Of a stretch of DNA of 64,000 nt, positions 31,590-44,488 are shown one piece after another; position 1 is the first letter of the stretch, and each line of letters begins with the position of its first letter. Under the pieces are notes generated by a model. That model saw only the letters and a program-made list of their open reading frames with translations. It searched no databases and had not been told where the DNA came from. The stretch comes from a virus: positions 2,332-66,331 of IMG/VR virus record IMGVR_UViG_3300047440_000580; one strand, written 5' to 3'. The translations under genes were made by a program, and so were the position numbers.

Positions 31590-32402
31590 CTATTCTTCTA
31601 CGAGCTCCGAGAAATCCTCGGGCTTGGCATTCTTCGCGTCTTCGCAGCTCTTCATGAGCTCCTTCTCCTTCTCGTCGCGACGATTGGGAGACCAGAAGAA
31701 GCAGAGCTCGTTGAAGAGTCCGTAGAGGAACTCGCCGAGCTCGTAGGTGACGCGGACGTCCGTGTTCTCGTAGCCGTCCGTCGTCCTGTCCGAGACCCAA
31801 CTGAGCCCGCGCTCAAACTTCTTGGAGCCCTTCCGCTTGAAGCCCATCTTCTTGGGCTTCTGCTTCTTCCACTTGTGCTTGCACAGCACCACGGTCTGCT
31901 TCATCGTGAGAGGCAGGTTGAGCAGGTAGGCCCAGGGCGTGAATTCGATCGCGTAGGAGTTTCCACGCTTCTCCAAGGGTACGTCCTCGCATCCTTCCTC
32001 CCAGTATGCTCCGATTCCGTGAGCAGAGACCGTATGGTCCTGCATGTCCCATTTCTCGATGTCGTCGTAGTTCGACATCTCGTAGTACTTGTAGACTTCG
32101 ATCGCCGTCAGCTTCGACTTGCGGTCGGGGTCGCGCTTGGCCACCACGTTCTCGTCCTTGAGGTACTCGTCCAGGTTCGCGTGACAGAGCTTCGCGACCA
32201 GGTCCAGCACCAGCGGATCGAACTTCTTGAGGACGGCGACCAGATCCTTCAGCCGGACCTTGCCCTTGATCTCCAGGCCGTGGTGCCAGGCTTCGAGGAA
32301 GAGGTGAGTCGTGGTGTTGATCTTCCACGTCTTGTACTTCTTCTTCTTGCCGTCCCACTCGCTGGCCCAGAACCCGTCCTTCTTGAGGATGACTTTGTCC
32401 AT
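31590..32402 (-). CDS. hypothetical protein inside tRNA array
   Basis: 270 aa, phage-like codon pattern; ATG abuts tRNA-Arg CCA. Confidence 0.75.
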   Translation of the reverse strand: MDKVILKKDGFWASEWDGKKKKYKTWKINTTTHLFLEAWHHGLEIKGKVRLKDLVAVLKKFDPLVLDLVAKLCHANLDEYLKDENVVAKRDPDRKSKLTAIEVYKYYEMSNYDDIEKWDMQDHTVSAHGIGAYWEEGCEDVPLEKRGNSYAIEFTPWAYLLNLPLTMKQTVVLCKHKWKKQKPKKMGFKRKGSKKFERGLSWVSDRTTDGYENTDVRVTYELGEFLYGLFNELCFFWSPNRRDEKEKELMKSCEDAKNAKPEDFSELVEE

Positions 32403-34026: not shown

Positions 34027-34102
34027 TGGTGACGCGTATGGGTTTTGATCCCATTCCTCCTGCTTGAAAGGCAGGCCACCTAGCCAGTAGTAAGAACGCG
34101 CC
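34027..34102 (-). tRNA. tRNA-Glu(TTC)
   Basis: loop CT-TTC-AA; T-loop ATCAAAA; CCA. Confidence 0.85.
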
Positions 34103-35142: not shown

Positions 35143-35146
35143 AAAT

Positions 35147-35430
35147 TGAAGTGGAACGTAAGCGGGGTTCTGTTCAAGAACGATCATTCGTCTGGGATGA
35201 CTGTCACCAGTCACCTCTAGCTCTCAACCCGTCAGCATCGGCCGGACCAGCCCCTGACTGCTCGAGATTGCTCCAGATGGACTCCCCCGTTTCAGCCGAG
35301 CATTACCTCGGTTCGTCTCTGTTGAGAGTATCTCCAGGTCACCCCGGACCAGTCGTTAGCTGGCATCCTGTCCTATGGAGCCCCGACTTTCCTCTGGTTT
35401 GCGAAGCCAGCGATCGTTGCATCCACTTCA
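35147..35430 (-). ncRNA. rnpB: RNase P RNA, compact bacterial A-type
   Basis: P1 TGAAGTGGA/TCCACTTCA; CR-I GAGGAAAGTCGGGG; CR-V ACAGAACCCCGCTTA (P4 covaries); P2, P3, P5, P7-P9, P12, P15-P18 identifiable; P13/P14/P19 absent. Confidence 0.92.
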
Positions 35431-35614: not shown

Positions 35615-35688
35615 TGGTACGCCATGAAGGAATCGAACCCTCGTCACCCGGTAATCGGCCAGGCGCACTACCATTGTGCTAACGGCGC
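35615..35688 (-). tRNA. tRNA-Ile(GAT)
   Basis: loop CC-GAT-TA; CCA. Confidence 0.8.
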
Positions 35689-35702
35689 ATGAGAGAAAAG
35701 AC

Positions 35703-35773
35703 GGCCGGCGTCCTTCCGCTAGACTACCAGGGACCGAGGTCCCCGGGCGGGATTCGAACCCGCGTTTCCGGCC
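35703..35773 (-). ncRNA. circularly permuted tRNA / YrlA-like tRNA-mimic module
   Basis: GGCCGG-AAAC-[GCGGG TTCGAAT CCCGC]-[CCGGGGAC CTCG GTCCCTGG]-TA-[GTCT AGCGGA AGGAC]-G-CCGGCC. Confidence 0.8.
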
Positions 35774-35776
35774 CAG

Positions 35777-35850
35777 TGCTTGCAGAGAGATTCGAACTCT
35801 CAGGAAGGTAGGTTTGAGCTACCTATGTCTACCTGTTGCATCATGCAAGC
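35777..35850 (-). tRNA. tRNA-Leu(CAA), short variable loop
   Basis: loop CT-CAA-AC; no CCA. Confidence 0.85.
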
Positions 35851-36226: not shown

Positions 36227-36297
36227 TGGAGCCGACGGGAATCGAACCCGCCACGGTCTGCTTGCAAGGCAGTCCTGTCACCTTGAATCTCGACCCC
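36227..36297 (-). tRNA. tRNA-Ala(TGC)
   Basis: loop CT-TGC-AA; G3:U70; weak D-arm; no CCA. Confidence 0.8.
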
Positions 36298-43135: not shown

Positions 43136-43328
43136 TGCTCGGATCGCGCGTCAAGTCCTGGACCTCGGGCAGTCCGAAGATGAGCGTCCCTTCGTCGAAG
43201 ATGTCCTTCTGGCGGAGCATGCGGATCCCGTCCTCCTTGAAGAGCTCGAGAGCCCGCTCGTACTCGGACTCGTCGAAGGAGGCGTAGCCGGACCCACTCT
43301 TGAAGACGACCTTGTAGCGCATGTTCAT
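43125..43328 (-). CDS. hypothetical protein
   Basis: MNMRYKVVF..., ATGA overlap with rtcB stop. Confidence 0.55.
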   Translation of the reverse strand: MNMRYKVVFKSGSGYASFDESEYERALELFKEDGIRMLRQKDIFDEGTLIFGLPEVQDLTRDPSNEN

Positions 43329-44488
43329 CCCTTCACGCAGAGCACTTGCTTCAGCTCTGCCACGATCTCCACCAGGTCGGACTGGTTCGCCATGACCTGA
43401 TCGATGTCCTTGTAGGCGCCCGGGATCTCGTCCAGGACCGCCTCGTCCTTCCGGCACTCGACGCCCGCCGTCTGGGCGATCATGTCGTCCAGCGTGAACG
43501 AACGCTTGGCCTTGCCGCGGCTCATCCGGCGGCCCGCCCCGTGGGACGCGCTGCAGAACGACTCCGGGTTACCGACTCCCCGAACGATGTAGGACTTGGT
43601 TCCCATCGATCCCGGGATGATGCCGAGCTCTCCGGCCTGGGCCGAGATCGCCCCCTTGCGGGTCACGATCAGGTCCTCACCGAAGTGGTTCTCCTCCGAC
43701 ACGTAGTTGTGGTGACAGAGGATCGGCTTCTCGAACTTCACCTTCCCGAAGTGCTCGATCATGATCTGCTTGTAGATTTCGAACATGGCCTTGCGGTTCA
43801 GGAACGCGTACTCTTGCGCCCAGTACAGGTCGTGCCGGTACGCCTCCATCTCCGGGGTCCCAGCCAGGAAGACCGCGAGGTCCTTGTCCGGGAGGCCCGT
43901 GTTGTGGGTCAGCTTCTGGGCGACCGCCATGTGGATCTCGGCCAGGGTCTTGCCGATGTTCCGGCTGCCCGAGTGGAGCATCATCCACACGTTTCCCTCG
44001 GTGTCCAGGCAGAGCTCGATGAAGTGGTTTCCGCCACCGAGCGTACCCACCTGCTTCCGGGCCTTGCCCTCGAGGTCACGGACCCCACGGCTCAGGTCGC
44101 CGAACTTCCTGAAGAGGTCGTTGGACGCCTTGACCACGGCGTTGGTGTGCTCGTTGAACCCGACCGGGATCCGCTCCTCGAGGTCGAGGCGGATGCGCTT
44201 CAGGCTGTCCGGCAGGTCGCTGGCCTTCAGGTCCGTCTTGATCGCTCCCATGCCGCAGCCGATGTCGACTCCCACGGCCGCCGGCGAGACCGCGCCCTTC
44301 ATGGCGATGACGGACCCGACGGTCGCGCCCTTGCCGAAGTGGACGTCGGCCATCGAGGCCACGTGGTGGAAGACCCACGGCAGGGCCGCGATGTTCTTCA
44401 GTTGGTCGAGGGCGACCGACTCTACCTCGTGGATCGGTGCCCAGAGGTGGATCGGTACGTTCTTCCCGTTCAGCAATGCGATTGACAT
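43325..44488 (-). CDS. rtcB: RtcB RNA ligase
   Basis: ADVHFGKGATVG, VGVDIGCG, GTLGGGNHFIE, HSGSR, HNY, SHGAGR, DEIPGAYK. Confidence 0.97.
   Translation of the reverse strand: MSIALLNGKNVPIHLWAPIHEVESVALDQLKNIAALPWVFHHVASMADVHFGKGATVGSVIAMKGAVSPAAVGVDIGCGMGAIKTDLKASDLPDSLKRIRLDLEERIPVGFNEHTNAVVKASNDLFRKFGDLSRGVRDLEGKARKQVGTLGGGNHFIELCLDTEGNVWMMLHSGSRNIGKTLAEIHMAVAQKLTHNTGLPDKDLAVFLAGTPEMEAYRHDLYWAQEYAFLNRKAMFEIYKQIMIEHFGKVKFEKPILCHHNYVSEENHFGEDLIVTRKGAISAQAGELGIIPGSMGTKSYIVRGVGNPESFCSASHGAGRRMSRGKAKRSFTLDDMIAQTAGVECRKDEAVLDEIPGAYKDIDQVMANQSDLVEIVAELKQVLCVKG

What the first reader, a model, noticed from the sequence alone, without database searches (positions are those of the whole stretch)
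35703..35773. Circularly permuted tRNA with a closed acceptor stem and no anticodon loop (YrlA-like mimic)
Seen: the tRNA parts are in swapped order. 3' anticodon strand GGCCGG, variable AAAC, perfect T-arm (GCGGG-UUCGAAU-CCCGC), acceptor stem closed as a hairpin (CCGGGGAC-CUCG-GUCCCUGG), UA, D-arm (GUCU-AGCGGA-AGGAC), then 5' anticodon strand CCGGCC. The RNA ends fall where the anticodon loop should be. It sits between tRNA-Leu(CAA) and tRNA-Ile(GAT), so normal processing of its neighbours would release it. Known: this is the topology of the tRNA-mimic domain of bacterial YrlA Y RNAs, which are linked to Rsr/Ro60 and RtcB, and of permuted tRNA genes in red algae. No Rsr-binding stem extension is seen here. 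Inference: either a stand-alone tRNA-elbow decoy that cannot be charged or cut at the anticodon, or a substrate that the phage RtcB circularizes.
Basis: partly seen in the sequence, partly recalled or inferred. Interest (0 to 1): 0.87.

Follow-up and report, generated by a model that had tools for sequence, protein, structure and literature searches.

The report
Handle-less tRNA mimic in phage array
A soil phage carries, in a tRNA slot of its 35-gene tRNA cluster, a small RNA gene shaped like a tRNA with a sealed amino-acid end and no anticodon; it is the tRNA-like "head" of known Y RNAs without the stem that binds their protein partner, which I did not find described in the papers I could search.

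Summary
Window 35703-35773 (minus strand) folds into a permuted cloverleaf: outer stem, 4-nt variable region, T arm, 8-bp loop-closed acceptor stem, U8-A9, D arm, G26, outer stem. It lies 2-3 nt after tRNA-Leu(CAA) and 14 nt before tRNA-Ile(GAT).

It is not a remnant. A distant relative (L004) has the same design in the same slot, with about 11 of 23 pairs changed on both sides. Fifteen such elements from diverse phages pair in 94% of cells, and 22 of 23 pairs show compensatory change.

The head matches YrlA-type Y RNAs. It lacks their basal Ro60-binding stem, because tRNAs abut it. No TROVE gene occurs in the 73.6-kb record, which is only 36% complete. Handle-less copies also occur in complete TROVE-less genomes, for example unannotated in Mycobacterium phage Rey.

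Across phages the class tracks TROVE (5/11 against 2/37), not RtcB (1/11 against 2/37). I found no support for RtcB circularization.

Most likely it is a non-chargeable, non-cleavable tRNA-body decoy released by neighbour processing. That function is inferred. No RNA evidence was obtained.

This scan has noted the class before on other DNA (66 notes, one of the same minimal type). Verdict: a new variant of a known kind.

The parts
35703..35773 (-). The whole permuted tRNA-like element (71 nt)
   Evidence: Sequence. The MFE fold equals the permuted cloverleaf. Covariance models R1 and R2.
35768..35773 (-). Outer stem, 5' strand GGCCGG (equivalent to the 3' strand of an anticodon stem)
   Evidence: Pairs with 35703-35708. 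All 6 outer-stem pairs show compensatory change across 15 elements.
35764..35767 (-). Variable region AAAC. Its last C can form the Levitt pair with G15.
   Evidence: Across 15 elements, R15/Y48 is G:C in 11 and A:U in 2.
35747..35763 (-). T arm GCGGG-UUCGAAU-CCCGC
   Evidence: The T stem is paired in 100% of cells across 15 elements.
35727..35746 (-). Acceptor-like hairpin, 8 bp closed by a CUCG loop (7 bp plus one extra G:C pair)
   Evidence: All 8 pairs covary. Stem length varies among relatives: 7 bp in L002 and 10 bp in L004.
35725..35726 (-). U8-A9 connector
   Evidence: TA in 14 of 15 elements.
35709..35724 (-). D arm GUCU-AGCGGAA-GGAC plus G26
   Evidence: A14, G15 and G18-G19 are present.
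35703..35708 (-). Outer stem, 3' strand CCGGCC
35689..35702 (-). 14-nt U/C-rich trailer (GUCUUUUCUCUCAU) up to the 5' end of tRNA-Ile
   Evidence: The L004 counterpart also has a UUUU run 4 nt after the stem. No terminator was predicted.
35776..35850 (-). Upstream neighbour tRNA-Leu(CAA), with no encoded CCA. Its discriminator is 3 nt from the element.
   Evidence: ARAGORN. Rfam 48.2 bits.
35615..35688 (-). Downstream neighbour tRNA-Ile(GAT), with encoded CCA
   Evidence: ARAGORN. Rfam 53.8 bits.
35143..35430 (-). Context: phage-encoded bacterial class A RNase P RNA, about 270 nt downstream in the same array
   Evidence: Rfam RF00010, 166.9 bits against a gathering score of 100. A 228-nt contig with one differing letter lies in a soil metatranscriptome.
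43325..44488 (-). Context: RtcB RNA ligase gene, 7.6 kb upstream on the same strand
   Evidence: Pfam PF01139, E 9e-125.

Best explanation
This is a real small-RNA gene under selection for its structure. It is the tRNA-like head of a YrlA-type Y RNA (T arm, loop-closed acceptor stem, D arm) closed by a short 6-bp stem instead of the long Ro60-binding handle. It occupies an ordinary tRNA slot in the phage's tRNA operon. Shown here: the fold, the tRNA tertiary-contact nucleotides, and conservation with compensatory changes in a positional counterpart and across many phages. Also shown: the handle is absent, and no TROVE gene lies in the available record. Inferred: it is co-transcribed with the array. 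It would be freed as an RNA of about 75-90 nt when the 3' end of tRNA-Leu and the 5' end of tRNA-Ile are processed by RNase Z or exonucleases and by RNase P. Having no free acceptor end and no anticodon loop, it can be neither charged, decoded nor cut by anticodon nucleases. Most likely it presents a tRNA body (the elbow plus the acceptor/T stack) as a competitor or decoy. The target would be a tRNA-recognising factor in the Ro60/RNA-repair sphere, such as a host tRNA-directed nuclease or whatever partner binds the tRNA-like domain of Y RNAs.
For: Fold and motifs. Positional counterpart in L004 between the same two tRNAs, with roughly 11 of 23 pairs changed on both sides. Class-level covariation: 94.3% of cells paired against 35-45% when partners are slid, and 22 of 23 pairs with double changes. 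Levitt pair kept in 13 of 15 elements. No similarity to the phage's own tRNAs beyond the generic level (best score 25 of 67). Handle-less copies abutting tRNAs occur in complete TROVE-less genomes: Mycobacterium phage Rey (L061, identical to NC_041971 around 57.99-58.06 kb, unannotated) and G037, 176 kb. TROVE-linked phage Y RNAs have the same head on a handle reaching about 45 nt to each side of it. The competitive-inhibitor idea for the YrlA head is in the literature (PMC7790460).
Against: There is no expression evidence. No metatranscriptome contig covers the element, although such libraries rarely capture small structured RNAs. The record is only 36% complete, so a phage Rsr may be encoded elsewhere. 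No binding partner is identified, so the decoy function is pure inference. In one relative (L002) the D loop has lost G18-G19 and the outer stem is poor, so the constraint is not universal.
Confidence: 0.5

Rival explanations
1. It is an ordinary Ro60 (Rsr) partner. The phage encodes Rsr in the unsequenced two thirds of its genome, or uses the host's Rsr. This RNA would work in that particle, either binding through its short stem or acting beside handle-bearing Y RNAs.
For: Across phages the permuted head tracks TROVE. In the pattern-based sample it is 5/11 against 2/37 (p = 0.004). Among known phages, 6 of 6 TROVE-positive genomes have stand-alone heads and 0 of 6 TROVE-negative genomes have a convincing one (KVP40's single weak hit set aside). 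Myrna, Phosso and CcrColossus also keep copies far from their TROVE gene, and those checked (Myrna, Phosso) carry a handle. The record is only 36% complete.
Against: There is no room for a handle: a tRNA lies 3 nt upstream and another 14 nt downstream. The GUUACUUC-type motif seen 5' of the head in TROVE-linked copies is absent. Rey and G037 are complete genomes without TROVE.
Confidence: 0.2
2. It is an RNase P substrate. RNase P nicks the top of the acceptor hairpin, and trimming plus CCA addition then give a two-piece, anticodon-less tRNA-like molecule with a free acceptor end. This happens to M. smegmatis YrlA in vivo.
For: Chen et al. [quoted passage not shown] Here the T stem and acceptor stack to 12 bp plus one extra G:C pair. 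Many family members have exactly 7 bp followed by a loop or bulge. The phage encodes its own RNase P RNA about 270 nt away.
Against: Stem length is not held at 7 bp among close relatives (7, 8 and 10 bp). Some members have continuous hairpins of 18-20 bp. Chen et al. did not see cleavage of Salmonella YrlA or Deinococcus Yrn1. No CCA is encoded.
Confidence: 0.13
3. It is a cis-acting processing or stability element of the operon: a tRNA-shaped spacer that guides or protects maturation of the neighbouring tRNAs and has no function in trans.
For: Handle-less copies sit 1-8 nt after a tRNA, like any array member. The window copy and both counterparts in L004 are followed by a U run.
Against: Full conservation of the D-loop and T-loop tertiary nucleotides is more than a spacer needs. 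The same head occurs outside arrays on Y-RNA handles. No terminator was predicted.
Confidence: 0.09
4. It is a permuted tRNA gene. RtcB joins the two ends to make an anticodon loop, and RNase P with 3' processing then opens the acceptor stem to give a working tRNA.
For: The 3' half precedes the 5' half, as in red-algal permuted tRNA genes. RtcB is encoded 7.6 kb away.
Against: No anticodon-loop nucleotides exist, and the flanks differ between the window and L004. Neighbour processing gives ends that RtcB cannot join (established enzymology). RtcB is not enriched with the element.
Confidence: 0.03
5. It is a decaying remnant of two adjacent or duplicated tRNA genes, with no function.
For: tRNA junctions score with the same covariance model. 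The copy in L002 looks degraded.
Against: Both the acceptor strands and the outer strands are complementary. The same slot in L004 keeps all four helices through double changes. No parent tRNA exists in the array.
Confidence: 0.05

Closest known systems
YrlA-type Y RNAs of bacteria and phages (Rfam RF02553; Chen et al. 2014, PMC4201824; phage examples in Bxz1, Myrna, CcrColossus and Bacillus phage G)
   Same: They share the permuted order (T arm, loop-closed acceptor-like stem, D arm), the tRNA tertiary-contact nucleotides, and ends that lie where the anticodon arm would be. The Rfam model aligns to the head. My model built from this element finds the Y RNAs beside TROVE genes in Bxz1, CcrColossus and Alone3.
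   Different: This element has no basal stem reaching about 45 nt to each side, and no conserved motif 5' of the head. It is not next to a TROVE gene, and none lies in the 73.6-kb record. It is 71 nt long, against roughly 135-160 nt, and it fills a tRNA slot bounded by tRNAs.
Canonical tRNA
   Same: It has all four helices, a 5-bp T stem with a UUCGAAU loop, U8, A14, G18-G19, G15:C48, a 4-nt variable region, and a 12-bp acceptor/T stack.
   Different: The order is rotated. The acceptor end is sealed by a CUCG loop, so there is no discriminator/CCA end. The anticodon loop is missing altogether. ARAGORN and Rfam tRNA do not call it.
Circularly permuted tRNA genes of Cyanidioschyzon merolae and other algae (from my own knowledge: Soma et al. 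2007)
   Same: The 3' half is encoded upstream of the 5' half, joined through a short intervening loop at the acceptor end.
   Different: Those genes keep every tRNA nucleotide and mature through a circular intermediate into a decoding tRNA. Here there is no anticodon loop to restore, and no conserved flank.
Two-piece (permuted) tmRNA genes
   Same: In those genes the acceptor 3' strand precedes the 5' strand and the intervening piece is excised. ARAGORN calls a permuted tmRNA in a related contig (L047).
   Different: This element has no mRNA-like part, no tag reading frame and no pseudoknots. It is only 71 nt long.

Membership tests
YrlA Y RNA (RF02553) | tRNA-like domain with T arm, closed acceptor-like stem-loop and D arm in that 5'-to-3' order | tested here: met
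   MFE fold. Rfam YrlA aligns over model positions 30-81.
YrlA Y RNA (RF02553) | Nucleotides for tRNA tertiary contacts, including a covarying 15:48 Levitt pair | tested here: met
   UUCGAAU, U8-A9, A14, G15:C48 and G18-G19 are present. Across 15 elements the 15:48 pair is G:C in 11 and A:U in 2.
YrlA Y RNA (RF02553) | Basal stem formed by the RNA's 5' and 3' ends that carries the Ro60-binding site (GNCGAAN0-1G motif region) | tested here: not met
   The outer stem is only 6 bp. tRNA-Leu ends 3 nt upstream and tRNA-Ile starts 14 nt downstream. TROVE-linked phage Y RNAs show long handles.
YrlA Y RNA (RF02553) | Encoded next to an rsr/TROVE gene | tested here: not met
   No TROVE match lies in the 73,655-base record. 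The record is 36% complete, so the whole genome remains open.
YrlA Y RNA (RF02553) | Reaches the Rfam gathering score (69 bits) | tested here: inconclusive
   It scores 24.1 bits. The TROVE-linked Y RNAs of phages that the literature lists as having Y RNAs also fail (CcrColossus 42.3, Myrna 40.3, phage G 36.2), as does Alone3 (33.8).
YrlA Y RNA (RF02553) | Binds Ro60/Rsr | not testable with these tools
   This needs immunoprecipitation or gel-shift assays.
Canonical tRNA | Free 5' and 3' acceptor ends and a 7-nt anticodon loop | tested here: not met
   The acceptor stem is closed by CUCG and there is no anticodon loop. There is no ARAGORN call.
Permuted tRNA gene (algal type) | Joining the transcript ends restores a complete tRNA, including the anticodon loop | tested here: not met
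   The flanks (CUG upstream and GUCUUUUC... downstream in the window; CUA and CGCGUUUU... in L004) give no conserved 7-nt loop with U33.
Two-piece tmRNA | mRNA-like segment with a tag peptide | tested here: not met
   The element is 71 nt, and ARAGORN makes no tmRNA call in the window.

The most novel reading that the evidence does not exclude
Handle-less tRNA heads may be a distinct, Ro60-independent class of phage small RNAs. On this reading they are made from tRNA operons by the host's own tRNA-processing enzymes and act as uncleavable, unchargeable tRNA bodies. They would block or distract host tRNA-directed immune nucleases, or the sensors of damaged tRNA. That would be a third layer of defence of translation, beside tRNA replacement (the array) and tRNA repair (RtcB).
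Probability: 0.2. Interest if true: 0.8.

Novelty: new variant of a known kind. Interest (0 to 1): 0.5.

Why it matters
Phage Y RNAs have been treated as partners of a neighbouring Ro60 gene. This case shows the tRNA-like head also exists alone, as a regular member of phage tRNA arrays. It occurs in well-studied, genetically tractable phages that encode no Ro60 (Mycobacterium phage Rey), where it is unannotated. That separates the head's function from Ro60 binding. It also gives a direct way to ask what the tRNA-like domain of Y RNAs binds, which has been open since 2014. In practice these elements are missed by tRNA finders and by Rfam thresholds, and tRNA-tRNA junctions mimic them, so array annotation needs a dedicated model.

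Tried and rejected
- An exact 22-mer of the element found nothing in IMG/VR.
- BLAST of the 1-kb region against GenBank phages found only tRNA-His and RNase P fragments.
- The closest RtcB relatives L001, L003, L005, L047 and L067 have no stand-alone element in their records. The one hit, in L001's record, is a tRNA-Arg/tRNA-Arg junction.
- Covariance-model hits are dominated by junctions of neighbouring tRNAs. Every hit had to be checked against ARAGORN calls.
- MAFFT could not align the window copy with L004 consistently with the structure. I used model-guided alignments instead, and these lean towards the model.
- Four soil runs were laid on the region, three metatranscriptomes and one DNA run. 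No RNA contig covers the element. Only the RNase P RNA is seen.
- RtcB association was rejected.
- Restoring an anticodon loop from the flanks was rejected. The window would give GUCU+CUG with a 6-bp stem, and L004 gives nothing comparable.
- No promoter or terminator is predicted beside the element.
- Neither Rfam YrlA nor RNase P matched the syntenic L004 region at E <= 0.1.
- Pfam and PHROGs gave no Ro60-like hit for the large unannotated ORFs.
- The supplementary phage table of Chen et al. 2014 is not held.

Full report
**What is there.** On the minus strand, 35773 to 35703 reads GGCCGG-AAAC-GCGGG-UUCGAAU-CCCGC-CCGGGGAC-CUCG-GUCCCUGG-UA-GUCU-AGCGGAA-GGAC-G-CCGGCC. RNAfold returns exactly this four-helix junction as its minimum-free-energy and centroid structure, at -39.5 kcal/mol and 77% of the ensemble. 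The shuffle z-score is only -2.6, so folding energy alone proves little. In tRNA terms the RNA starts with the 3' strand of an anticodon stem. It runs through a 4-nt variable region and a canonical T arm into the 3' acceptor strand. It turns back through a tetraloop into the 5' acceptor strand, then continues through U8-A9 and a canonical D arm (A14, G15, G18-G19) and G26. It ends with the 5' strand of the anticodon stem. There is no anticodon loop and no free acceptor end. ARAGORN tRNAs in the window, all on the minus strand. tRNA-Leu(CAA) at 35776-35850 and tRNA-Ile(GAT) at 35615-35688 flank the element, and nothing is called on it. Rfam tRNA sees only its T arm.

**Context.** The window is part of a 73,655-base IMG/VR virus record that CheckV rates 36% complete. 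It comes from soil and rhizosphere metagenomes and has about 60% G+C. The tRNA array also holds a class A RNase P RNA at 35143-35430 (166.9 bits). RtcB lies 7.6 kb upstream. No TROVE (Ro60/Rsr) gene is found in the record. Pfam and PHROGs give no Ro60-like hit for the unannotated ORFs.

**It is conserved, not a remnant.** Loci around RtcB relatives were fetched. L004, whose RtcB is 68% identical, has between its own tRNA-Leu(CAA) and tRNA-Ile(GAT) the sequence GAGGG-AGAC-AUUGG-UUCGAAU-CCAAU-ACUGAGAGUC-GUAA-GACUUUGGGU-UA-GCUU-AGCGGUC-AAGC-G-CCCUC. All four helices are kept. Roughly 11 of 23 pairs are changed on both sides, while the unpaired tRNA nucleotides stay the same. A covariance model built from the window sequence alone found this copy at 38 bits. 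The element resembles none of the phage's own tRNAs beyond the generic level. L002 has a weaker copy with D loop AGAAAAG and a poor outer stem.

**It belongs to a widespread class.** I used a second model and checked every hit against ARAGORN calls, because junctions between neighbouring tRNAs score as false positives. Stand-alone permuted elements appeared in many phage contigs.
- L004 has six and L002 has two.
- Mycobacterium phage Rey (L061, identical to NC_041971) has one right after tRNA-Asn, unannotated in GenBank. Relatives L052, L058 and L059 carry it too.
- The complete or near-complete genomes G002, G017, G037 and G039 also have them.

An alignment of 15 such elements pairs in 94.3% of cells, against 35-45% when partners are slid. 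Twenty-two of 23 pairs show compensatory change. That alignment is model-guided and so leans towards the structure. The 15:48 Levitt pair is G:C in 11 elements and A:U in 2.

**Relation to Y RNAs.** The Rfam YrlA model aligns to the element only over its tRNA-like module, at 24.1 bits against a gathering score of 69. The score alone does not decide membership. The TROVE-linked Y RNAs of CcrColossus, Myrna and Bacillus phage G, and that of Alone3, also reach only 34-42 bits. Mycobacteriophages, CcrColossus and Bacillus phage G are phages already reported to have Y RNAs (PMC4201824; PMC12135203).

I tested twelve known phages. All six with a TROVE gene (Bxz1, Myrna, Alone3, Phosso, CcrColossus and, weakly, Bacillus phage G) have stand-alone permuted heads, several directly upstream of the TROVE gene. 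T4, T5, 44RR, LP65 and RaK2 have none, and KVP40 has one weak, poorly paired hit that I discount. Only CcrColossus has RtcB. Folding with flanks shows that the TROVE-linked copies sit on a basal stem reaching about 45 nt to each side of the head. A recurring GUUACUUC-like motif lies 5' of the head. The window element, L004a/b, L002a, Rey and L089 cannot have such a handle, because tRNAs lie within a few nucleotides.

**Association test.** I scanned IMG/VR with a pattern blind to both proteins: T loop, 20-29 nt, then D-arm motifs. It gave 145 matches in 118 loci, of which 11 were stand-alone permuted elements and 128 were tRNA junctions. Records with a permuted element hold TROVE in 5 of 11 cases, against 2 of 37 junction-only records (Fisher p = 0.004). 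RtcB is present in 1 of 11 against 2 of 37 (p = 0.55). Two RtcB-positive control records have no stand-alone element. So the class belongs with Ro60 biology, not specifically with RtcB. Even so, handle-less copies occur in complete genomes where no TROVE gene is detected, namely Rey and G037.

**How it probably works.**
- Shown: the RNA-level constraint on a tRNA-shaped body, with neither the acceptor end nor the anticodon available.
- Inferred from position: co-transcription with the array, and release by the processing of tRNA-Leu's 3' end and tRNA-Ile's 5' end.
- Inferred function: a tRNA-body mimic that competes for a tRNA-recognising factor. Hughes et al. 2020 proposed that the YrlA head, which the Salmonella anticodon nuclease does not cut, might inhibit that nuclease. 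A phage that invests in 35 tRNAs and RtcB fits this logic, but nothing here tests it.
- RNase P rival: M. smegmatis YrlA, with a 7-bp stem, is nicked by RNase P and receives CCA in vivo. Stem length is not conserved among close relatives, however.
- RtcB circularization into a working tRNA is not supported, for the reasons given above.

**Expression.** No metatranscriptome contig covers the element. One 228-nt contig with a single differing letter covers the RNase P RNA. This neither supports nor refutes a stable RNA.

**Novelty.** YrlA-type Y RNAs in phages have been known since 2014. In the papers I could search I found no description of a handle-less head filling a tRNA slot in phages without Ro60. 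This scan has logged the general class repeatedly: 66 notes in at least 65 genomes. At least one note describes the same minimal type (e1-3433005).

Noticed in passing
window 35143-35430 (-): A class A RNase P RNA (166.9 bits, 288 nt against a 367-position model) lies inside the phage tRNA array. A 228-nt contig with one differing letter (35175-35402) is in a soil metatranscriptome. The syntenic spacer in L004 (4137-4353) gives no RNase P match.
   Followed up: partly
L061 4902-4977 and 4528-4650 (Mycobacterium phage Rey; L061 is identical to NC_041971 over the region compared): There are two unannotated permuted tRNA-like elements. One lies 2 nt after tRNA-Asn. A second, right after the tmRNA, has a long insert in its acceptor hairpin. 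A GOLLD RNA follows at L061 5322-5745.
   Followed up: partly
L004 3039-3118, 3810-3932, 4429-4539, 8581-8656, 8754-8833: This relative (contig rated 6% complete) carries at least six permuted tRNA-like elements in its arrays. Several have long inserts at the tip of the acceptor hairpin.
   Followed up: partly
window 34030-34102 and 36227-36297 (-): Rfam tRNA matches (39.7 and 31.4 bits) that ARAGORN does not call. They may be non-canonical tRNAs.
   Followed up: no
L128, L126, L129, L078, L220, L225, L273 (5' flank of each permuted head): TROVE-linked phage Y RNAs share a GUUACUUC-like motif followed by a small hairpin just 5' of the tRNA-like head. The motif is absent from the handle-less elements.
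   Followed up: partly
L047 790-1165: ARAGORN calls a permuted (two-piece) tmRNA with tag ANDDMFVVALAA in a complete 110-kb phage genome related through RtcB.
   Followed up: no
window 31590-32402 (-): A 270-aa ORF inside the tRNA array has no Pfam or PHROGs match.
   Followed up: partly
G002 (L028 5740-5831, 5934-6024) and G039 (L088): Complete jumbo-phage genomes with no TROVE hit carry permuted heads on long basal stems. This suggests either a Ro60-like protein too divergent for Pfam or another partner.
   Followed up: no
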